From the UHGV virus genome UHGV-0113240: a stretch of DNA of 20,402 bases; one strand, 5' to 3'. How positions within the stretch are numbered: the stretch's first letter is position 1; the number at the start of each line of letters is the position of its first letter. Below are positions 8,214-19,369 of this stretch, one piece after another. A program made the translations under genes and the position numbers. Below the pieces are notes generated by a model, which did not search any database, was not told the origin of the DNA, and saw only the letters and a program-made list of their open reading frames with translations. This DNA is from a virus.

Positions 8214-9041
8214 TTAGACTTGAGGAAGTATTTTTTTTGCAAAATCAATAGTTTCTTTGTGGCTGGATGCAGGTATATGATTTATTTTCTTAGCATCCAT
8301 AGTTCTCTTTATGATGTCAATAACTTTGCTTTGGCCTGAGTTTGGTGATTCAGGGGTTTCAATTGTGAATAGAATGTCATCAAGTGAAAGCAGGTTTTCT
8401 TCTGCTGCTCGAGTTATTCTCATCACCCAAGTATCACTATGCTCCATCATTTTTCCGGGTTCAGTTTGAGTGAATGCCAGAGGTTTGATGGCACATTGGA
8501 TCCTGTCGTGCTTCTTGGCGACCAATGGCATTGAGAACTTTGCGAAATACCCATCAATAGTTGCTTGTTTGAAGACGTTCTTCAATCCATCTATTCTATC
8601 GATACTGCGTTTTAGCTCTCTAGCTAGGACATCTTCACGGCGCTCTTTTGTGTAGTCAGCGTGGTTTACATATTTATTGTAAATGCGAGCCAACTCTTCT
8701 TTCGGGTTTTCACTGAGGATAACTCTCGTAGAGCTGAACTGAAAAATTGATTCTTTTTTGTTTGTAAAATATCTGAAGAATTGTGCAAGTTGTTGATGTC
8801 CAACAATCTGGGTAGCATGCATTTTTGCGAACTGGAGTTCTCTTTGTATTGAGTCTTTTGCTACGGGAAAAATGCAATCATCATGGAAGAAATTCTTTAC
8901 ACGAGAGTCATTTCGCTTTGTGAGCTGGAAGTCAAAGTAATTTTCTTTTGGCGCGCACAGAAGTACGCCTATGTTTGCGAACTCTTCAGTCTCCGCATAA
9001 GGCGCATAGCGAACGATGCTATATAGGCATGGAGTTGTCAT
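8214..9041 (-). CDS. DUF3037-like protein (start at ATG 9041, overlapping the upstream TGA)
   Basis: 275-aa ORF; N-terminal CLYSIVRYAPYAETEEFANIGVLL resembles the conserved N-terminal motif recalled for DUF3037; ATGA overlap with the kinase-like gene. Confidence 0.55.
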   Translation of the reverse strand: MTTPCLYSIVRYAPYAETEEFANIGVLLCAPKENYFDFQLTKRNDSRVKNFFHDDCIFPVAKDSIQRELQFAKMHATQIVGHQQLAQFFRYFTNKKESIFQFSSTRVILSENPKEELARIYNKYVNHADYTKERREDVLARELKRSIDRIDGLKNVFKQATIDGYFAKFSMPLVAKKHDRIQCAIKPLAFTQTEPGKMMEHSDTWVMRITRAAEENLLSLDDILFTIETPESPNSGQSKVIDIIKRTMDAKKINHIPASSHKETIDFAKKILPQV

Positions 9042-9790
9042 TCTATTGCGCTCCAAAATTCATCACAATCACCTTTGCCTAGCGTAGTGCAGACAAAAGG
9101 TAAAAACTCATCATCTACTATCCACTCCTCTGGAATTTCGTCAAGGATAGCAGGAAGTTTGTGTAAACTGTCAACGACCCTCTGGCGGTACTCTACGCGA
9201 TCCACTAAATCATACTGCCATTTGCGGTTACCCGGGCCGTACACGTGTACAGAAAAATCTTCAGGCCCAGCATTCTGATCAAATGATAGATTATGGTCAA
9301 TCAGATAATACTTATCGTTACTGATGTCATAAAGGATATTGACGTTTCCGCCTTTATCAGTAAGCGTTCTGTCTGCATTTAATATCCACTTATCAAAAGC
9401 ATAGATTAATTTTTGCTGTTCGACTGGGATGATCATTTCGTTTCTTGACTGCGTAAACGTTAACGCGATTGCACCGTCTATGAACAATGAAGCAAAAGCA
9501 TACCCTGTACAAATTTGTTGCTGCAGATCAGGTGTGTACTCTACAAGTTCCTCTGGTACAAATACGATTTTAAAGTCAGGTAAAGGAAGGCCGATATCAT
9601 TAGCCAGGCACGCCGAAATGAACTCAGCTAAGAGATTTTTCGGGGGCATTGATGGTTTAGATTTCAAAACATACAACTGCCCATCATCACATTTGCAAAG
9701 AAATGGCTGAGTGGAACCTTCATTGATGCGACGTATTACTTCAACGACATTAGGTATTGCACTACTGCTGCTTGCTTCGCGCTCCATCAC
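9038..9790 (-). CDS. atypical HipA / PI-kinase-like kinase-domain protein
   Basis: 250-aa ORF with LYVLK (candidate beta3 Lys), WILNADRTLTDKGGNVNIL (DRxxxxxxN-type catalytic loop) and YYLIDHNLSFD (DFG-like) motifs; directly downstream of cI. Confidence 0.5.
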   Translation of the reverse strand: MMEREASSSSAIPNVVEVIRRINEGSTQPFLCKCDDGQLYVLKSKPSMPPKNLLAEFISACLANDIGLPLPDFKIVFVPEELVEYTPDLQQQICTGYAFASLFIDGAIALTFTQSRNEMIIPVEQQKLIYAFDKWILNADRTLTDKGGNVNILYDISNDKYYLIDHNLSFDQNAGPEDFSVHVYGPGNRKWQYDLVDRVEYRQRVVDSLHKLPAILDEIPEEWIVDDEFLPFVCTTLGKGDCDEFWSAIE

Positions 9791-10980: not shown

Positions 10981-11526
10981 ATGATTATGCAACCACTTAC
11001 ATACCAACAGACTAGCGGATTTAGCCCGACTGCGGTGATAAATCGTTCTCAAACAAAACAAGCTCCAGGCCACGAAAAAATCCGTGATGCCGTCCGCGCC
11101 TGGTCGGCTGTAGATAATCAGGATGTCGTTGCCGCACTCATTGTGAATGAGTATCGGGAGCAGGGCGGCGGCACCATCGATTTCCCTGATGATGTCAGCC
11201 GTGCACGCCAGAAGCTGTTCCGCTTCCTCGATAACAAATTCGATTCTGAAAAATACCGAAATAACGTGCGTGAACTGACCCCGGCAATTCTGGCGGTACT
11301 ACCGCTGGAATATCGCGGTTACCTGGTTGAGCAGGATAGCTTCATGGCTAGGTTGGCTGAAATGGAAAAGGAACTCAGTGAGGCAAAACAGGCTGTCATT
11401 CTCAACGCACCACGCCACCAGAAACTGAAGGAAATTAGTGAAGGTATTGTGTCGATGTTTCGTGTGGACCCAGATCTGGCTGGTCCATTGATGGCGATGG
11501 TTACTACCATGCTGGGGGCGATATGA
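10981..11526 (+). CDS. YdaT/CII-like regulatory protein
   Basis: 181-aa ORF in the cII position between cro and O; recalled resemblance to Rac YdaT-family proteins (NEYREQGGG segment). Confidence 0.45.
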   Translation: MIMQPLTYQQTSGFSPTAVINRSQTKQAPGHEKIRDAVRAWSAVDNQDVVAALIVNEYREQGGGTIDFPDDVSRARQKLFRFLDNKFDSEKYRNNVRELTPAILAVLPLEYRGYLVEQDSFMARLAEMEKELSEAKQAVILNAPRHQKLKEISEGIVSMFRVDPDLAGPLMAMVTTMLGAI

Positions 11527-11612
11527 CAGGTTCAGAAATGGCGAAAGCCGGTCTGCTGGAACAGAACCGACTTTCAGGTGCAAATCGTAACACACTCATT
11601 GCGGGAGGAATT

Positions 11613-12542
11613 ATGGCAAACACTGCTGAGATATTCAATTTTCCAGTGCCGGATGCGGCACAAAAGGAGCCGCGCGTGGCAGATCTCGATGATGGTTATA
11701 CGCGCATTGCAAATGAGTTGCTGGAAGCTGTGATGCTGGCCGGATTAACACAGCACCAGCTTCTGGTCTTCCTAGCTGTCATGCGCAAAACATATGGCTT
11801 TAATAAAAAACTGGATTGGGTGAGCAACGAGCAACTGTCCGAATTGACCGGGATATTGCCGCACAAGTGTTCTGCTGCAAAAAGCGTTCTGGTAAAGCGT
11901 GGGATTCTTATTCAGAGCGGGCGGAATATCGGCATTAATAATGTGGTCAGTGAATGGTCAACATTACCCGAATCAGGTAAGAAAAATAAAGTTTACCTGA
12001 AAGAGGTAAATTTACCTGAATCAGGTAAGAAAAGTTTACCCAAATCAGGTAAAGGCACTTACCCGAATCAGGTAAACACAAAAGACAAACTAACAAAAGA
12101 CAATATAAAACCTTTTTCGTCCGAGAATTCTGACGAATCCTCTGACCAGCCAGAAAATGCCCTTCCTGTGGTGAAACCGGATGCTGCGATTCAGAGCGGC
12201 AGCAAGTGGGGGACAGCAGAAGACCTGACCGCCGCAGAGTGGATGTTTGACATGGTGAAGACCATCGCGCCATCAGCCAGAAAACCGAATTTTGCAGGGT
12301 GGGCTAACGATATCCGCCTGATGCGTGAACGTGACGGACGTAACCACCGCGACATGTGCGTGCTGTTCCGCTGGGCATGCCAGGACAACTTCTGGTCCGG
12401 TAACGTGCTAAGTCCGGCCAAACTCCGCGACAAGTGGACCCAACTCGAAATCAACCGTAACAAGCAACAGGCTGGCGTGACAGCCGGAAAATCAAAACTC
12501 GACCTGACGAACACTGACTGGATTTACGGGGTGGAGCTATGA
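11613..12542 (+). CDS. O: replication initiator O (start at ATG 11613 after GGGAGGAA; tracked ORF begins 11523)
   Basis: N-terminus MANTAEIFNF...VADLDDGYTRIANELLEA...LLVFLAVMRKTYGFNK matches the lambda O DNA-binding domain; iterons inside the gene; stop overlaps the P start. Confidence 0.85.
   Translation: MANTAEIFNFPVPDAAQKEPRVADLDDGYTRIANELLEAVMLAGLTQHQLLVFLAVMRKTYGFNKKLDWVSNEQLSELTGILPHKCSAAKSVLVKRGILIQSGRNIGINNVVSEWSTLPESGKKNKVYLKEVNLPESGKKSLPKSGKGTYPNQVNTKDKLTKDNIKPFSSENSDESSDQPENALPVVKPDAAIQSGSKWGTAEDLTAAEWMFDMVKTIAPSARKPNFAGWANDIRLMRERDGRNHRDMCVLFRWACQDNFWSGNVLSPAKLRDKWTQLEINRNKQQAGVTAGKSKLDLTNTDWIYGVEL
11968..12077. repeat. origin-of-replication iterons inside O, followed by an A-rich tract
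   Basis: Four copies of ttaCCnGAATCAGGTAAg plus one degenerate copy at about 24-bp spacing, then ACACAAAAGACAAACTAACAAAAGACAATATAAAAC. Confidence 0.75.
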
Positions 12543-13228
12543 AAAACATCGCCGCACAGATAGTTAATTTTGACCGTGAGCAGATGCGCCGGATCGCCAA
12601 TAACATGCCGGAACAGTACGACGAAAAGCCGCAGGTACAGCAGGTAGCGCAGATTATCAATGGTGTGTTCCGCCAGTTACTGGCAACTTTCCCGGCGAGC
12701 GTGGCTAACCGGGACCAGAACGAACTGAACGAAATCCGCCGCCAGTGGGTTCTGGCTTTCCGGGAAAACGGGATCACCACAATGGAACAGGTTAACGCTG
12801 GAATGCGCGTAGCCCGTCGGCAGAATCGACCATTCCTGCCATCACCCGGGCAGTTTGTCGCCTGGTGCCGGGAAGAAGCATCCGTTACCGCCGGGCTGCC
12901 AAACGCCAGCGAGCTGGTTGATATGGTTTACGAGTATTGCCGGAAGCGCGGGCTGTATCCGGATGCAGAGTCTTATCCGTGGAAATCAAACGCGCACTAC
13001 TGGCTGGTTACCAACCTGTATCAGAACATGCGGGCCAATGCGTTGACTGACGCGGAATTACGGCGCAAGGCTGCCGATGAACTGTCCTGTATGACCGCAC
13101 GAATTAACCGTGGTGAGGCTATACCTGAACCAGTAAAACAACTTCCTGTCATGGGCGGTAGACCTCTAAATCGTGCACAGGCTCTGGCGAAGATCGCAGA
13201 AATCAAAGCTAAGTTTGGGCTGAAATGA
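12539..13228 (+). CDS. P: replication protein P (DnaB helicase loader)
   Basis: 229-aa protein recalled as near-identical to lambda P (MKNIAAQ.VNFDREQMRRIANNMPEQYDEKPQVQQ...). Confidence 0.95.
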   Translation: MKNIAAQIVNFDREQMRRIANNMPEQYDEKPQVQQVAQIINGVFRQLLATFPASVANRDQNELNEIRRQWVLAFRENGITTMEQVNAGMRVARRQNRPFLPSPGQFVAWCREEASVTAGLPNASELVDMVYEYCRKRGLYPDAESYPWKSNAHYWLVTNLYQNMRANALTDAELRRKAADELSCMTARINRGEAIPEPVKQLPVMGGRPLNRAQALAKIAEIKAKFGLK

Positions 13229-13530
13229 GCAAGGGTATGACGGGCAAAGAGGCAATTATTCATTACCTGGGGACTCATAAGAAATTCTGTGCGCAGGACG
13301 TTGCCGCGGTAACAGGCGCAACGGTAACCAGCATAAATCAGGCTGCGGCTAAAATGGCGCGGGCAGGAATCCTGGTCGTTGATGGTAAGGTCTGGCGAAC
13401 GGTGTATTATCGGTTCGCTACCAGAGAAGAACGGGAAGGAAAGGTGAGCACGAATTTGATTTTTAAGGAGTGTCGCCAGAGTGCCGCGATGAAGCGGGTG
13501 TTGGCGGTATATGGGAGGACTACAGCATAA
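13225..13530 (+). CDS. ren: Ren protein (start may be the internal ATG at 13237)
   Basis: Sequence MTGKEAIIHYLGTH...VTGATVTSINQAAAKMARAG...VYYRFATREEREGK matches lambda Ren; immediately follows P. Confidence 0.85.
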   Translation: MSKGMTGKEAIIHYLGTHKKFCAQDVAAVTGATVTSINQAAAKMARAGILVVDGKVWRTVYYRFATREEREGKVSTNLIFKECRQSAAMKRVLAVYGRTTA

Positions 13531-14007
13531 GCATAACTTATGGATTATATGGAAAACTGGTAATTATGCTCTTTTCTTATGAAAATAAAGAGAAGTTTTC
13601 GCTGGCGTTTTATTTCTTCTGTTTTTTCTTGCGGGTTATTCTGATTTGTTTTGATTTGATTTTTTCTGACAAAAGTAGGGAAAAAATATGTCGCAAGTAC
13701 TTTCTGTCTTTACCTCCTAAATTACATTCTCTATCAAATGTTGCCATAGTTATGACCCCAGTTTTATATAGTGTTTCAGCAATTTTTCTGTAGTTTTTTT
13801 CTCGCAAAATTGAAGAGTTTTTCTTTGCTGTATTTTCAAGGCTATCTCCTTGTGGTTTAAGACTATTTGGGCCAAAAAACGTTGTGGATACTGCTGCACT
13901 TGTTGTCCGTTTTTTTTGGCCCATTTGGATAGTACTTGGGAGAGGCATGATTTTAATACGCATATAAATAACTCCTCTATCAATTGGATTTTGGGAAAAT
14001 GTTAACA

Positions 14008-14325
14008 TTAATCATGATTAAGGAGTAATTTTAAATCTTCCAATAAAATTTGTTTAAACTCTTGTGTTCTATGATCGATATACAACGCAAGTTTGCTTGC
14101 ATTATCTTCCAGGTCACGTATCTCTCTGTCACCTCGAATAAACCCAACTAAATTTAAACGTTTAGATAGTTCAGAACTTCCTTCTATGGCATCTTGGAGT
14201 ATTTGAATGATTTCTGAATTCATTGAGCGCCCGTTTCGTTTGGCTCGTTCAGCTATAGCTTCACGCATCCCATCAGGGAAACGGAGGTTAAACTTATCGT
14301 AGTCTTTTACTTGTTTGTCAGCCAT
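14008..14325 (-). CDS. Mnt/Arc-family ribbon-helix-helix repressor (start at ATG 14325)
   Basis: 105-aa ORF MADKQVKDYDKFNLRFPDGMREAIAERAKRNGRSMNSEIIQILQDAI with an RHH N-terminus; GGGGG SD; divergent from a second RHH gene. Confidence 0.6.
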   Translation of the reverse strand: MADKQVKDYDKFNLRFPDGMREAIAERAKRNGRSMNSEIIQILQDAIEGSSELSKRLNLVGFIRGDREIRDLEDNASKLALYIDHRTQEFKQILLEDLKLLLNHD

Positions 14326-14345
14326 TGAACCCCCCAAAAAAATGA

Positions 14346-14401
14346 ATGGTGCCATATTGCCACATCAATTCAATGGTGGCATTATGGCCTCATGGTGTCA
14401 T
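14346..14401. promoter_or_regulatory. candidate operator: three direct repeats of ATGGTGNCAT between the divergent RHH genes
   Basis: ATGGTGCCAT (14346), ATGGTGGCAT (14373), ATGGTGTCAT (14392) at 27- and 19-bp spacing. Confidence 0.4.
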
Positions 14402-14424
14402 TGTGGCCTCATGAGGTTATGTCA

Positions 14425-14583
14425 ATGGAAAAGAAAGAGGTAAAAATTACCCTTCGCTATCCGCAAAAAGTGAAGGATGAATTCAAGCGAATTGCTCAGG
14501 AGGAAGGGATGTCTGAGAACGCAGCTATTGTTCAGGCGCTTGTATGGGCATTGAAATTTAGAACACGGATACATGCTCGCTAG
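14425..14583 (+). CDS. Arc-like ribbon-helix-helix repressor (52 aa; start at ATG 14425)
   Basis: MEKKEVKITLRYPQKVKDEFKRIAQEEGMSENAAIVQALV has the RHH pattern and P22 Arc-like size; GAGG 8 nt upstream; directly precedes an antirepressor-like gene. Confidence 0.55.
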   Translation: MEKKEVKITLRYPQKVKDEFKRIAQEEGMSENAAIVQALVWALKFRTRIHAR

Positions 14584-14653
14584 AAACAGCGAAGCCCCAC
14601 TGGCGGCAACCTTAGGGGCTTCTATCGAAAATAACCGCGAAGGAAATATCGAC

Positions 14654-15322
14654 ATGAGTATTGTAGCAACATCAGATCTGAACTTCCAAGGTGAAGCACT
14701 AGTGCCAGTGGCAAATATTGCCGGAATATGGCTAACTTCATCCAACCTAGCAAGAGCACTGAAGTATTCGAATAGTCGCGCAGTCACGATGATTTACAAC
14801 AAATATGCTGACGAATTTTCCAGTAGTATGACTAGAGTGCTTGAAGTCAGTACCTTAGAGAATGATGTCGAGGTACTTGATCTGAGTACCTCGAAAAGTA
14901 CTCGAAACTTGAAGAAGAAAGTACGCGTTTTCTCTCTCCGCGGAGCCCATTTGATCGCCATGTTCGCCCGCACTCCTGTAGCCAAAGAGTTCCGCCGTTG
15001 GGTTCTGGATATTCTCGATCGAGAAGTTCAACAATCCCCAATCATAAAACAATTCACTGATAACGAACTTTGCACACTTGCTTGGTTGTGGCGAGCTGGG
15101 GATGCGATGTTAACCGCCTGCCAGAACGTTACTCCTCTTCTTCAGGTTGCGGAGCATCGTGAAGCTGGTCGCTTCACTTCTATCGAGCAAGAATATCCCC
15201 AGATACTCAATAAGGCACAGGCAATCCTTGCCAGAGAAACGGCACATGTAAAATTCCGGCCGTGGCAGGATGATAAGTGGAGTCGAGTTTTGCCGCATTT
15301 ACGTTCGGATCGATTACAGTAG
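14654..15322 (+). CDS. Bro-N domain antirepressor-like protein (start at ATG 14654 after AAGGAA)
   Basis: RVFSLRGAHLIAMFARTPVAKEFRRWVLDIL matches the conserved Bro-N/antirepressor N-domain signature; follows the arc-like gene as in P22 immI. Confidence 0.6.
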   Translation: MSIVATSDLNFQGEALVPVANIAGIWLTSSNLARALKYSNSRAVTMIYNKYADEFSSSMTRVLEVSTLENDVEVLDLSTSKSTRNLKKKVRVFSLRGAHLIAMFARTPVAKEFRRWVLDILDREVQQSPIIKQFTDNELCTLAWLWRAGDAMLTACQNVTPLLQVAEHREAGRFTSIEQEYPQILNKAQAILARETAHVKFRPWQDDKWSRVLPHLRSDRLQ

Positions 15323-15783
15323 ATTCCAATTAACAATGAGAAACACATAGCCACCCCGTGGTATTGAAACCATATAATGTTGGATTTGAAAACAGATCTT
15401 TTTCCATGTATTAATAACTACATCCCCGCGAGTGATTCAAAAAGGAGGGCCCAATTTTGTCCGAGTTTTTGTATTCCCCCGCATGCCGCTGCGGAGCACT
15501 ACATCTGAGTGTCTGACTAGGGGATAAAATTAGACTGGATAGTGAGAAGAAAGTGGCGTGCTAGGCTGTGCCGAGTGCTACCAGTACACCCTGGGGGTGT
15601 GCAGCTTTCGCCGAGACTGTAGTGGGTATCGGTTAATGCACGAAAAACCGAGAGGTCAGACAACCAATTTGCCGTAGGATTGTTTCCGGTGCGATACCGG
15701 TGTACTAACTGAAAGCAATGCGAAAAAGCATAAACTCGGTCCTTCAGTCGCCCTACACACTATTTACTAAGAAGGGCTAAAGC

Positions 15784-16140
15784 ATGGATACAATTATCAC
15801 ATGGATGGGAGATCGTCTGTTGGGGTGGATAACAAACAAATCCGATCTGCGGCAGAGGGCAATCACTGGATTAACTCCTGCGATTTGTTCAACAATTTTA
15901 TATACTGAAAAATTAAAACGTGGTGAGCCTAATAACCCAAACGAAGAAGAAAAACTTTATAGGCTTTGGTATGAAGCGTCTTCCCAAGTCGTAGACTTTG
16001 ATCGAGAGCTGGCTAAAAGATGTTTAGATAAATCAGAATATTGGCTTCATTCTGAATTATATAGCCCTGAGAAAGTTGAAGAGCTAAACATTTCTTTGGT
16101 TGGTATGAAGGCAATGCTTGAAGGAATAAAGCACAATTAA
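15784..16140 (+). CDS. hypothetical protein (orphan, no recognised family)
   Basis: 118-aa ORF with AAGAAGGG SD; preceded by about 460 bp without any tracked ORF. Confidence 0.4.
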   Translation: MDTIITWMGDRLLGWITNKSDLRQRAITGLTPAICSTILYTEKLKRGEPNNPNEEEKLYRLWYEASSQVVDFDRELAKRCLDKSEYWLHSELYSPEKVEELNISLVGMKAMLEGIKHN

Positions 16141-16327
16141 AACCTTTGATTTGCGATAATCAACTCGCCATAATCATGTCATCGGAGCCTGAACAACTCC
16201 GGTGACTTCTGCGCTAAACGGGGACGTTTATGCGCACACACAATCCAAACTCTCTTCTCCCTCCGCAGATGCAGAAATGCACCTGCGATATATTGTATCC
16301 AGCGTTTCACCTCTACGGAGGTGAAGC

Positions 16328-16783
16328 GTGAACCTCCCACAAGATGGTATCAAATTGCATCGCGGTAACTTCACCGCTATCGGTCGGCAGATCCAGCCTT
16401 ATCTGGAGGACGGCAAATGCTTTCGCATGGTGCTTAAACCGTGGCGCGAGAGACGCAGTCTTTCCCAGAATGCACTCAGCCACATGTGGTACAGCGAAAT
16501 CAGTGAATACCTCATCAGCAAGGGTAAAACGTTCGCCACTCCAGCTTGGGTAAAAGATGCTCTCAAACACACATATCTCGGTTATGAAACCAAAGACCTG
16601 GTTGATGTCGTAACCGGTGATATCACCACTATCCAGTCGTTACGCCATACCTCCGATCTTGATACCGGAGAGATGTATGTCTTCCTCTGTAAGGTTGAAG
16701 CCTGGGCGATGAATATTGGCTGCCACCTGACTATTCCGCAGAGCTGCGAGTTCCAGCAGCTCCGCGACAAGCAGGAGGCGTAA
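16328..16783 (+). CDS. ybcN: YbcN-like protein (DLP12-type nin region)
   Basis: 151-aa ORF, GTG start 4 nt after GGAGGTGA; recalled near-identity to E. coli DLP12 YbcN. Confidence 0.75.
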
Positions 16784-17595: not shown

Positions 17596-17732
17596 TGTTT
17601 GAGTTTTATATGGCAGAACTTCTTCGCCACCGCTGGGGGCGTCTGCGCTTATATCGTTTCCCCGGTTCTGTTTTGACCGATTACCGGATACTGAAGAATT
17701 ACGCCAAAACACTGAAAGGAGCTGCCGCATGA
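17592..17732 (+). CDS. ylcG: YlcG-like small protein (not in ORF track, 46 aa)
   Basis: [46 protein letters not shown]; ATGA overlaps with rusA stop and with the next gene's start. Confidence 0.6.
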
Positions 17733-18418
17733 ATACCCAATATTTACAGTATGTCCGCGAGCAACTCATTGTGGCTACTGCTGATTTGGGCGGAGCAACG
17801 AAAGGCCAGCTTGAAGCCTGGCTGGAGCATGCACAATTTGATACTGGTACATATAAACGAAAGAAGCCGCGCATTATGGATGAGGTAACGGGCAAGATGA
17901 TTACGCTGGATAATCCGCCGATTTCCGGTAAGCAGTCGTACGCAAAAGGTTCATCCATTGCACTGGTCAGCCAGGTTGAGTTCTCAACATCTTCATGGCG
18001 CCGCGCGGTTCTGTCTCTCGAAGAACATCAGAAAGCGTGGTTGCTGTGGAGTTACAGCGAAAGTGTTCGCTGGGAACATCAGGTCACCATAACGCAGTGG
18101 GTATGGAGCGAGTTTAAGACTCTGTTGGGTACCAGGAAAATTGCAGGTAAGACACTGGAACGTTTGAAGAAGTTGATCTGGCTGGCGGCACAGGATGTGA
18201 AGAACGAGCTGGCAGGGCGTAAGACCTATGAATACCAGGAGCTGGCATTACTGGCGGGAGTGACAACTAAAAACTGGTCCAAAACATTTACTCGTCACTG
18301 GGTTGCAATGAAACACATTTTTCACCGACTGGATAGTGAGGCTTTATTGTTTGTAATGAGAACACGTTCAAAACAAAAGGTGGCATTTTCAAAGCAAAGT
18401 GTTGCAAAAGTAGATTGA
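17729..18418 (+). CDS. late-gene antiterminator Q-like protein
   Basis: 229-aa ORF in the canonical Q position: after rusA/ylcG and immediately before a promoter-like stretch plus strong intrinsic terminator (pR'-tR' arrangement); family assignment by position, not sequence. Confidence 0.55.
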   Translation: MNTQYLQYVREQLIVATADLGGATKGQLEAWLEHAQFDTGTYKRKKPRIMDEVTGKMITLDNPPISGKQSYAKGSSIALVSQVEFSTSSWRRAVLSLEEHQKAWLLWSYSESVRWEHQVTITQWVWSEFKTLLGTRKIAGKTLERLKKLIWLAAQDVKNELAGRKTYEYQELALLAGVTTKNWSKTFTRHWVAMKHIFHRLDSEALLFVMRTRSKQKVAFSKQSVAKVD

Positions 18419-18628: not shown

Positions 18629-18704
18629 GGCCCTTTAGCTCAGTGGTGAGAGCGAGCGACTCATAATCGCCAGGTCGCTGGTTCAAATCCAGCAAGGGCC
18701 ACCA
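18629..18704 (+). tRNA. ileZ: tRNA-Ile2 (anticodon CAU, lysidine type; could alternatively read as Met)
   Basis: 76-nt cloverleaf: acceptor GGCCCTT/AAGGGCC, anticodon loop CUCAUAA, T-loop GGTTCAAATCC, 3' ACCA; recalled close match to E. coli ileX-type tRNA. Confidence 0.8.
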
Positions 18705-18713
18705 TATCACATA

Positions 18714-18790
18714 CCGCCATTAGCTCATCGTGACAGAGCGCCAGCCTTCGAAGCTGGCTGCGCGGGGTTCAAGTCCCCGATGGCGGTCCA
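18714..18790 (+). tRNA. argN: tRNA-Arg (anticodon UCG)
   Basis: Acceptor CCGCCAT/ATGGCGG, anticodon stem CCAGC/GCTGG with loop CUUCGAA, T-arm CGGGG-TTCAAGT-CCCCG, 3' TCCA. Confidence 0.75.
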
Positions 18791-18803
18791 TTATCGGTAT
18801 TCT

Positions 18804-18880
18804 GCGTTGTTAGCTCAGCCGGACAGAACAATTGCCTTCTAAGCAATCGGTCACTGGTTCGAATCCAGTACAACGCGCCA
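18804..18880 (+). tRNA. argO: tRNA-Arg (anticodon UCU)
   Basis: Acceptor GCGTTGT/ACAACGC, anticodon stem ATTGC/GCAAT with loop CUUCUAA, T-loop GGTTCGAATCC, 3' GCCA. Confidence 0.8.
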
Positions 18881-19169
18881 CACCACACTTATCTGCCCTG
18901 ACTCTCTTTTGCGGGCTTTTTATTACAGGAAAGACACCGGACAGTGAAATGTTAAATGCCTCACAATTCAGGCAGTTGACTGTTGCCTGACATGCTGAGC
19001 GTTTGTTAAAAAAATCCTGCATGATGAATCCCCCTGAGCGGCGGGGCATAATGACAGATGTTTGGTTGCGTATTGTATAGGCAAGTTGCGGATTCTGTCT
19101 GGTCATTGCAGAATTCACCGGGAGGCACCCGGCATCATGCATCTGGTGAATTAAATGTGCATACGTAAT

Positions 19170-19194
19170 GCCCCTCTTCGGAGGGGCTTTTTTT
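19170..19194 (+). terminator. strong intrinsic terminator
   Basis: GCCCCTC-ttcg-GAGGGGC hairpin followed by TTTTTTT. Confidence 0.75.
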
Positions 19195-19369
19195 CGGAAA
19201 AAGCACGCAATGGGCGTGCATTAGCATGAGATATTGAGGCTTTAAATTTTTTCGTGCGGGTTTTAACCCGGTTTCATGAGGCTGCGCAACTGCGTGGCCT
19301 TTTTTGTTTTTCTGGCTGCTGAAAGTGGCAGTCACAGTCCTTCATATCACCCGTGACCGGGGAGGAACA

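What the first reader, a model, noticed from the sequence alone, without database searches (positions are those of the whole stretch)
15323..16140. About 460 bp with no tracked ORF and strong pairing potential, upstream of an orphan 118-aa protein
Seen in sequence: the tracked ORFs leave 15355..15783 empty on both strands. The stretch contains an AAAGGAGGG SD followed by a 19-codon TTG-initiated frame, a recurring CCGAG pentamer (about 15462, 15570, 15611, 15648), and complementary segments such as GGGTATCGG and CGATACCGG that could pair. The downstream 118-aa protein has no family I recognise and sits in low-GC DNA. Inference: a structured leader, small RNA or RNA-protein module (a type III toxin-antitoxin-like arrangement is one possibility, though no clean tandem repeats are evident).
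Basis: inference. Interest (0 to 1): 0.5.

Follow-up and report, generated by a model that had tools for sequence, protein, structure and literature searches.

The report
New structured RNA gene in lambdoid prophages
The "empty" 460 bp is a previously undescribed, about 335-nt intricately folded RNA gene with its own promoter, carried by lambda-like prophages of E. coli, Klebsiella and relatives; its function is unknown, and it is not a type III toxin-antitoxin partner of the 118-aa protein next to it.

Summary
The gap is real and holds something. Window 15386-15752 (+) is a self-contained module found in about 100 fetched loci and in 159 of 5426 complete E. coli genomes, always once, always in the nin region of a lambdoid prophage. 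It has a conserved sigma-70-like -35 and -10 around a variable spacer. Then comes an RNA core of about 335 nt, ended in many lineages by an intrinsic terminator. The window's lineage lacks that terminator, so the RNA runs into the 118-aa ORF.

Nineteen representatives (57-97% identical) support 15 helices. 96.5% of cells pair, against 29-41% for slid controls, and 28 pairs show compensatory changes. A 6-bp kissing loop occurs in four covarying versions. G.U pairs place the RNA on the + strand.

The SD-like AAAGGAGGG and the 19-codon TTG frame are helix strands, not a gene: third codon positions are invariant and there is no 3-periodicity. No Rfam family matches, PGAP annotates nothing here, and I found no paper.

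Flanking genes differ between loci. At least six unrelated orphan ORFs, or none, follow the RNA, and homologues of those ORFs occur without it. There are no repeats. The type III TA reading is therefore unsupported.

Most likely this is an autonomous folded RNA that binds a protein or ligand. A cis-acting leader remains a live rival.

The parts
15386..15391 (+). -35 hexamer TTGAAA of the RNA's own sigma-70-type promoter
   Evidence: TTGAAA, TTGAAT or TTGTAT is conserved in all lineages, while the 17-18 nt spacer and everything upstream are not alignable.
15409..15415 (+). -10 region (TATTAA/ATTAAT, preceded by TG at 15407-15408); other lineages have TTTAAT, TTAAAT or TTATAT
   Evidence: Conserved columns. 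The simple promoter scan missed it because position 6 of the hexamer is not T in this lineage. The transcription start is inferred at about 15420-15422.
15420..15752 (+). Core of the structured RNA (about 333 nt), from AUCCCCGCGAG to CAGUCGCC
   Evidence: 78-83% identical to Klebsiella phage Kp4856-1 and to an unrelated E. coli prophage with different flanks. About 100 loci carry it. RNAalifold gives 85 pairs, 28 of them compensatory. The + strand is 96.6% canonical against 85.4% for the - strand. No Rfam match.
15423..15449 (+).
   Evidence: 96.8% of cells paired, with C-to-U changes giving G.U.
15457..15516 (+). 19-codon TTG frame, judged non-coding; its first codons are the 5' strand of H2
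   Evidence: Third codon positions are invariant and the changes fall at first positions. The frame is 11, 16 or 19 codons long depending on lineage. No 3-periodicity.
15459..15472 (+). Long-range closing helix H2, 5' strand GUCCGAGUUUUUGU; pairs with 15728-15741
   Evidence: 12 pairs, 97.4% paired, one compensatory G-C to C-G change in L080. It is the only inverted repeat found by the repeat finder.
15728..15741 (+). H2, 3' strand GCAUAAACUCGGUC
15488..15510 (+). Hairpin H4; its loop carries CACUAC (15497-15502), one partner of the kissing loop
15511..15518 (+). H5, 5' strand GUCUGACU; pairs with GGUCAGAC at 15654-15661 and encloses the central domain
   Evidence: 99.3% paired, 3 pairs with compensatory changes.
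15549..15609 (+). Central three-branch domain, helices H8-H11 (15549-15554/15604-15609, 15555-15560/15576-15582, 15564-15566/15570-15572, 15586-15591/15595-15600)
   Evidence: Multiple A-U to G-C and C-G to A-U swaps.
15610..15633 (+). Hairpin H12 (GCCGAGACU / GGUAUCGGU); its loop GUAGUG (15619-15624) is the other kissing-loop partner
   Evidence: The stem exists in four different sequence versions, all paired. Kissing loop versions: CACUAC/GUAGUG, CACCAC/GUGGUG, CGCAAC/GUUGCG, CAUCAC/GUGAUG. 98.2% paired against 13-57% when slid.
15654..15661 (+). H5, 3' strand GGUCAGAC
15670..15717 (+). 3' domain, helices H13-H15, with the terminal hairpin CCGGU GCGAU ACCGG (15686-15700)
   Evidence: 6 of the 8 pairs of H15 show compensatory changes.
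15753..15783 (+). Linker to the 118-aa ORF, carrying its ribosome-binding site (GAAGGG, 15771-15776). Many other lineages have an intrinsic terminator (CCGCCnnnnGGCGG + U-run) at this point
   Evidence: The terminator is absent in every locus where the 118-aa family follows the RNA.
15784..16140 (+). 118-aa orphan protein (PHROG 12412), co-transcribed cargo; not an obligate partner of the RNA

Best explanation
Window 15386-15752 (+) is an autonomous gene for a new family of structured non-coding RNA.

Shown:
- A conserved sigma-70-type promoter, with the transcript inferred to start at about 15420.
- A core of about 333 nt that folds into about 15 helices. These comprise a long-range closing helix, a nested central domain, a 3' domain and a covarying 6-bp kissing loop.
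- An intrinsic terminator in many lineages. It is missing in the window's lineage, so here the RNA is also the 5' leader of the 118-aa ORF.

Inferred:
- It is transcribed constitutively, including in lysogens. Its promoter is self-contained and carries no conserved operator.
- It works as a folded particle, binding a protein or a small ligand, and not by antisense pairing or by encoding a peptide.
- It acts independently of whichever accessory gene lies downstream. In effect it is an 'RNA moron' sitting at a recombination-prone junction of the nin region.

The partner or ligand, and the benefit to phage or host, are unknown.
For: - Conservation with changed flanks.
- Conserved -35 and -10 around a variable spacer.
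- Terminators of different sequence in different lineages.
- 85 pairs, 28 of them compensatory. 96.5% of cells paired against 29-41% when slid. Covariation score 0.281 against 0.073 or less.
- Kissing loop in four complementary versions.
- Strand test, with 200 G.U cells.
- No coding signal.
- One locus (L009) where the RNA and its terminator are followed directly by an ordinary nin gene (DUF1367).
- Downstream ORFs are unrelated to one another, and their homologues occur without the RNA.
- RNA helix variants do not track cargo type.
- Single copy in 159 of 5426 E. coli genomes, unannotated.
Against: - I have no transcript data. Promoter, start site and 3' end are all inferred.
- Folding energy of the single sequence is not better than shuffles.
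- In every locus an ORF starts on the same strand soon after the RNA (about 30-110 nt) and has no room for its own promoter. That fits a leader as well as an independent gene.
- No protein partner or ligand was identified.
- The alignment rests on roughly 15 effective sequences from one bacterial order.
Confidence: 0.55

Rival explanations
1. The RNA is a cis-acting leader, like a riboswitch or attenuator. It folds to sense a signal and sets how much transcription or translation passes into the accessory gene immediately downstream, by terminator read-through or by masking the ribosome-binding site.
For: - An ORF on the same strand always begins soon after the RNA or its terminator (about 30-110 nt), with no space for its own promoter.
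- Roughly half the lineages, the window's included, have no terminator, so RNA and ORF share one transcript.
- A multi-helix fold with a loop-loop contact is typical of large riboswitches (established knowledge).
- The conserved 3' tail (UCCUUC..GCCCU at 15742-15755) is complementary to the ribosome-binding site GAAGGGC of the 118-aa ORF. This is read directly from the sequence and was not tested.
Against: - The downstream genes are unrelated orphans rather than one pathway.
- Terminator sequences differ between lineages, and I found no conserved alternative antiterminator pairing.
- L009 has the RNA and terminator with no cargo.
- Cargo homologues function elsewhere without the RNA.
Confidence: 0.25
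2. This is a type III-like toxin-antitoxin or abortive-infection pair. The RNA neutralises the 118-aa protein, or in other lineages the other cargo proteins, which are toxic.
For: - The layout of promoter, RNA, optional terminator and small ORF resembles toxIN loci.
- The location is an accessory region of a prophage.
- Close homologues of the 118-aa protein (69% identity or more) always follow the RNA.
Against: - No tandem or direct repeats.
- One conserved RNA is paired with at least six unrelated ORFs, or with none.
- The 51% homologue of the 118-aa protein, and homologues of the 176/183-aa cargo, lack the RNA.
- No match to ToxN/AbiQ or any PADLOC model.
- The 118-aa model is a generic helical bundle.
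- A truncated 66-aa form is common, in about 60 E. coli genomes.
Confidence: 0.05
3. The region encodes one or more small proteins, as in the phage Turner record, which annotates 43-aa and 39-aa CDSs, or the 19-codon TTG frame. Alternatively it is a decayed gene.
For: - The GenBank record PP925837 annotates two small CDSs here.
- A GGAGG motif lies 5-8 nt upstream of an invariant UUG in most lineages.
Against: - No 3-periodicity of substitutions in any 60-nt window.
- No frame is open in all representatives.
- Single-base indels occur within the region.
- Third codon positions of the mini-ORF are invariant, while first positions change.
- The 43-aa ORF starts upstream of the conserved promoter.
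Confidence: 0.04
4. This is a DNA-level element, such as a recombination site, origin or protein-binding array, and not an RNA.
For: It sits at a mosaic junction where the flanks change on both sides.
Against: - Covariation keeps G.U pairs that would be A.C mismatches on the other strand.
- Promoter and terminator bracket the conserved block.
- No repeats.
Confidence: 0.03

Closest known systems
Large orphan structured RNAs carried by phages and prophages (GOLLD, ROOL and similar Rfam families)
   Same: Long, intricately folded and covariation-supported, carried by temperate phages, with function unknown.
   Different: No covariance-model match even at E <= 10. It is smaller, at about 335 nt, and confined to lambdoid prophages of Enterobacterales. 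It has a clear sigma-70 promoter and often its own terminator.
Type III toxin-antitoxin loci (ToxIN, CptIN, TenpIN)
   Same: The order promoter, RNA gene, optional terminator, ORF, in a mobile-element setting.
   Different: No tandem repeats, no ToxN/AbiQ-like protein, and the RNA is constant while the ORFs swap or are absent.
Large riboswitches and leader RNAs with loop-loop contacts (for example lysine and cobalamin riboswitches)
   Same: A closing helix, a multi-helix junction and a kissing loop, positioned directly upstream of an ORF.
   Different: No coherent downstream gene function, no conserved expression platform, and no Rfam match. The comparison of architecture rests on my own knowledge and was not tested here.
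put RNAs of phage HK022 (processive antitermination)
   Same: A structured RNA of a lambdoid phage lying in the rightward early transcription unit.
   Different: put is about 70 nt with two stem-loops and lies next to PL/PR. This RNA is about 335 nt, lies in the nin region, and has its own promoter and usually its own terminator. The function was not testable here.
STnc100/PasD and other prophage sRNAs
   Same: Prophage-encoded and promoter-driven. STnc100 is present in this same window at 18990-19199.
   Different: Those are base-pairing sRNAs of about 200 nt or less. This RNA has 15 covarying helices, and I found no conserved target complementarity.

Membership tests
Type III toxin-antitoxin (ToxIN-like) | Antitoxin gene made of tandem direct repeats (about 34-40 nt units) | tested here: not met
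   TRF at minimum score 30 returned nothing, and the repeat finder found no direct repeats.
Type III toxin-antitoxin (ToxIN-like) | Toxin is a ToxN/AbiQ-fold endoribonuclease | tested here: not met
   [not shown]
Type III toxin-antitoxin (ToxIN-like) | RNA and toxin are inherited as an obligate, cognate pair | tested here: not met
   The RNA occurs with at least six unrelated ORFs, or with none. Protein homologues occur without the RNA.
Type III toxin-antitoxin (ToxIN-like) | The protein is toxic and the RNA neutralises it | not testable with these tools
   Needs expression experiments.
Any Rfam 15 family (including riboswitches, ribozymes, C4/CI immunity RNAs, tmRNA, 6S, GOLLD, ROOL, HEARO) | Covariance-model score at or near the gathering threshold | tested here: not met
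   The only hit in 15250-16250 at E <= 10 is a chance one, inside the 118-aa ORF (snoR127, 15.6 bits, E = 5.7), and none falls in the RNA. Divergent members L080 and L072 gave only chance hits. ARAGORN finds no tRNA or tmRNA here.
Riboswitch or attenuator leader | Conserved structured sensor domain | tested here: met
   15 helices and a kissing loop with covariation.
Riboswitch or attenuator leader | Expression platform with mutually exclusive pairing to the sensor domain | tested here: inconclusive
   Terminators differ in sequence or are absent, and the helix scan found no conserved alternative helix. Weak complementarity between the tail and the ribosome-binding site was seen only by eye.
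Riboswitch or attenuator leader | Downstream genes share a pathway or function | tested here: not met
   Downstream ORFs are mutually unrelated orphans.
Type I toxin-antitoxin (hok/sok-like) | Small hydrophobic membrane toxin ORF within the structured mRNA | tested here: not met
   The only recurrent frame is 11-19 codons, is not hydrophobic (MSEFLYSPACRCGALHLSV) and shows no coding signature.
Independent sigma-70 transcription unit | Conserved -35 and -10 at 17-18 bp spacing, and an intrinsic terminator | tested here: met
   The hexamers are conserved and the spacer is not. Terminators are found in many lineages but not in the window's. Activity itself was not tested.

The most novel reading that the evidence does not exclude
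The RNA is a stand-alone sensor or regulator that gates a swappable slot for small toxic or defensive effector genes. It would be an RNA-based counterpart of the 'conserved sensor plus variable effector' design of protein defence systems. Alternatively it is a new ligand-binding or catalytic RNA class living in E. coli prophages. Either way it would be a large, experimentally tractable functional RNA class in the best-studied phage-host pair.
Probability: 0.12. Interest if true: 0.9.

Novelty: categorically new. Interest (0 to 1): 0.68.

Why it matters
Lambdoid phages of E. coli are among the most intensively studied genetic systems. A 335-nt RNA there, with 15 covarying helices, a kissing loop, its own promoter and no match to any of 4227 Rfam families, would be an unrecognised functional RNA class in plain sight. 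About 3% of complete E. coli genomes carry it, as do isolated, culturable phages (Turner, IdasGreatGrand, Klebsiella Kp4856-1). Deletion, compensatory mutagenesis, pull-downs and structure determination are therefore immediately feasible. It also corrects existing annotation: the phage Turner record calls two small CDSs inside the RNA. And it marks a recombination junction where orphan accessory genes are exchanged.

Tried and rejected
- Known RNA family. Rfam at gathering threshold and at E <= 10, on the window and on two divergent members, gave nothing.
- Thermodynamic evidence. MFE z-scores are not significant, so the case rests on comparison alone.
- Coding. No periodicity and no conserved frame.
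- Repeats, and hence type III TA. None found.
- Conserved protein neighbour as a partner. ORFs within 4.5 kb were clustered, and only general lambdoid genes (O, P, NinB and so on) recur.
- Antisense target. The loop segment GACUGGAUAGUG has a 12-nt complement in ninB (16627-16638) and a 14-nt identical copy in Q (18327-18340). Neither appears in any other locus checked, including L014 of the window's own lineage, so I treat both as chance.
- Resemblance to tmRNA segments. Judged to be at chance level by estimate, and ARAGORN and Rfam are negative.
- Single-column mutual information for further pseudoknots. Too noisy with about 15 effective sequences. A stacked-helix scan yielded the kissing loop and one weak candidate, GCGA 15428-15431 x UUGC 15669-15672, which I did not pursue.
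- Covariance model of the whole RNA.
- Literature. Five searches found no description. svsR is a different RNA, 77 nt long, at cI. One 2026 preprint on mining non-coding elements could not be opened.

Full report
**Setting.** The window is a lambdoid prophage, about 100% identical over the finding to Escherichia phage Turner. Reading left to right it carries:
- integrase and an exo/RecT-type recombination module
- a HipA-like kinase with DUF3037, next to the CI repressor
- cro, then a YdaT-like gene
- O (11523-12542), P (12539-13228) and Ren (13225-13530)
- a P22 immI-like insert with two Arc-like genes and an anti-repressor (13610-15322)
- the finding itself
- NinB (16328-16783), Q (17729-18418), three tRNAs and the known sRNA STnc100

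**Observation.** The gap is real. Nothing of 60 aa or more lies in 15355-15783. The SD-like AAAGGAGGG, the TTG at 15457 with its 19-codon frame, and four CCGAG pentamers (4 of the window's 10) are all there. Folding energy, however, is no better than for shuffled sequence: z = -1.26 on + and -0.58 on -.

**What comparison shows.** About 335 nt of the gap recur at 78-83% identity in Klebsiella phage Kp4856-1 and in an unrelated E. coli prophage, with different genes on both sides.
- Scans with three different conserved blocks each recovered nearly the same set of about 65 IMG/VR loci.
- A scan of one genome per species found Enterobacter pasteurii and Escherichia sp. ESNIH1, plus 10 hits in unrelated taxa that I take to be chance; a profile search confirmed the RNA only in the two enterobacterial loci.
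- A metagenome scan added 30 loci.
- Loci reached through protein homologues added Obesumbacterium, Enterobacter bugandensis and Citrobacter braakii.
- Among 5426 complete E. coli genomes, 159 carry it. Each has one copy, and PGAP annotates nothing over the RNA.
- Only 4 of 50,697 phage records and no plasmid hold it.

**Boundaries.**
- Left edge: alignability begins exactly at a -35 hexamer (TTGAAA, TTGAAT or TTGTAT; window 15386-15391). The 17-18 nt spacer is not conserved, and the -10 (TTTAAT, TTAAAT or TTATAT; window TATTAA/ATTAAT at 15409-15415) is conserved again. That is the signature of a promoter, and it places the start at about 15420.
- Right edge: conservation ends at CAGUCGCC (15745-15752).
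- About 10 nt further on, many lineages have an intrinsic terminator. Its sequence differs between lineages: CCGCCnnnnGGCGG + U-run, or GCCACCgaaaGGUGG + U-run in L009.
- The window's lineage has none, and neither does any other locus where the 118-aa family follows the RNA.

**Structure.** I aligned nineteen representatives, 57-97% identical to one another (alignment A2). RNAalifold predicts 85 pairs in 15 helices, and 28 pairs show changes on both sides.

| Measure | Observed | Control |
|---|---|---|
| Cells forming a standard pair | 96.5% | 29-41% with partners slid; 89.2% in shuffles |
| Pairs with compensatory changes | 28 | 4-13 slid |
| Covariation score | 0.281 | 0.073 or less slid |
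| Shuffles reaching the observed value | 0 of 500 | |

In window coordinates the architecture is:
- H1: 15423-15427 with 15444-15449. This is the 'SD' pairing with the 5' end.
- H2, the long-range closing helix: 15459-15472 with 15728-15741. It is the only inverted repeat that the repeat finder reports.
- H3: 15480-15484 with 15718-15722.
- H4: a hairpin at 15488-15510.
- H5: 15511-18 with 15654-61, enclosing a central domain (H7-H12).
- H13-H15: a 3' domain at 15670-15717.

A scan for stacked covarying helices outside this model found a 6-bp loop-loop contact between the H4 loop (CACUAC, 15497-15502) and the H12 loop (GUAGUG, 15619-15624). It exists as CACUAC/GUAGUG, CACCAC/GUGGUG, CGCAAC/GUUGCG and CAUCAC/GUGAUG. 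98.2% of cells pair, against 13-57% when slid.

The + strand is the RNA. It has 200 G.U cells and is 96.6% canonical, against 85.4% for the complementary strand.

**Not coding.** No 60-nt window shows 3-periodicity of substitutions, and no frame on either strand is open in all representatives. In the TTG mini-frame the third codon positions are invariant while first positions change. The frame is 11, 16 or 19 codons long depending on lineage. The two small CDSs annotated in the phage Turner record are therefore probably mis-calls.

**Context.** The genes upstream differ from locus to locus: anti-repressor, dATP/dGTP pyrophosphohydrolase-like, and others. An ORF on the same strand always begins soon after the RNA or its terminator (about 30-110 nt), but it varies:

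| ORF that follows the RNA | Terminator between RNA and ORF |
|---|---|
| 118-aa family (or its 66-aa truncation) | no |
| 178-aa protein with hydrophobic segments at both ends (probably membrane-spanning; read from the sequence, not tested) | yes |
| 176/183-aa protein | yes |
| 177-aa protein | no |
| 95-aa followed by 162-aa | no |
| 69-aa followed by 98-aa (L080) | yes |
| none; DUF1367, an ordinary nin gene, follows directly (L009) | yes |

None of these ORFs matches Pfam, PADLOC or NCBIfam. RNA helix variants do not track the type of cargo. Homologues of the cargo proteins occur without the RNA: a 51% homologue of the 118-aa protein sits beside an integrase, and three homologues of the 176-aa protein also lack it. 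RNA and cargo are therefore separable modules joined at a recombination junction.

**Mechanism.** What is shown is a conserved, promoter-bracketed, + strand RNA with an elaborate and tertiary-stabilised fold. From that I infer that it acts as a folded particle, binding a protein or ligand, and independently of its neighbour. I put this at 0.55.
- Main rival, 0.25: a cis-acting leader that governs passage into the downstream ORF. In its favour, the ORFs lack promoters of their own, and half the lineages, the window's included, have no terminator. Against it, the cargos are unrelated, the terminators are not conserved, and L009 has no cargo at all.
- Type III TA (0.05), small proteins (0.04) and a DNA-level element (0.03) are each contradicted by specific tests.

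**Comparison and novelty.** No Rfam 15 family matches, even at E <= 10, for three divergent members. Five literature searches found no description. One 2026 preprint on mining non-coding elements could not be read, so prior description cannot be fully excluded. As a family it has no known relatives. In kind it resembles orphan structured phage RNAs such as GOLLD and ROOL, and in layout it resembles type III TA loci, but it fails their defining tests.

**Limits.**
- There is no expression data.
- The alignment has about 15 effective sequences, all from one bacterial order.
- A whole-RNA covariance model could not be built, so more distant relatives were not sought.

Noticed in passing
window 18990-19199 (+), with tRNAs at 18629-18880: A full-length copy of the known prophage sRNA STnc100 (154.8 bits) lies just downstream of a tRNA-Met/Arg/Arg cluster and of the Q gene.
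   Followed up: no
window 8214-9790 (-): A HipA_2-like kinase (250 aa) overlaps a DUF3037 protein (280 aa). Both sit in low-GC DNA (0.36-0.42) immediately beside the CI repressor, in the position where lambda carries rexAB. This is a plausible lysogen-expressed toxin or defence pair.
   Followed up: no
window 13610-15322: A P22 immI-like insert lies between ren and the RNA: an unknown 132-aa ORF and an Arc-like gene on the - strand, then an Arc-like gene and a Bro-N/P22_AR_C anti-repressor on the + strand. Part of it is the lowest-GC stretch of the window, about 0.34. Phage Turner carries different genes at this spot.
   Followed up: partly
window 15533-15546, against 16627-16638 and 18327-18340: The conserved unpaired RNA segment GACUGGAUAGUG(AG) has a perfect 12-nt complement inside ninB and a 14-nt identical copy inside Q. 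About 0.8 such 12-mers are expected for the whole RNA. Neither match appears in any other locus checked, including L014 of the window's own lineage, so I treated them as chance.
   Followed up: yes
window 15784-15976; P0017; about 60 E. coli genomes: A 66-aa version of the 118-aa gene is common. It has the same N-terminal half and then a different end (PHROG 8527). The match in those genomes stops at window position 15976.
   Followed up: partly
window 16179-16205 (+): A 9-bp perfect hairpin (UCAUCGGAG ... CUCCGGUGA, with a 9-nt loop) and no U-run lies between the 118-aa ORF and ninB. A promoter-like site (TTGATT-17-CATAAT) at 16146-16174 sits just before it.
   Followed up: no
[not shown]
   Followed up: partly
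PP925837.1 (phage Turner), L001 4055-4186 and 4236-4355: Two 'hypothetical protein' CDSs are annotated inside the structured RNA. They are probably mis-annotations.
   Followed up: yes
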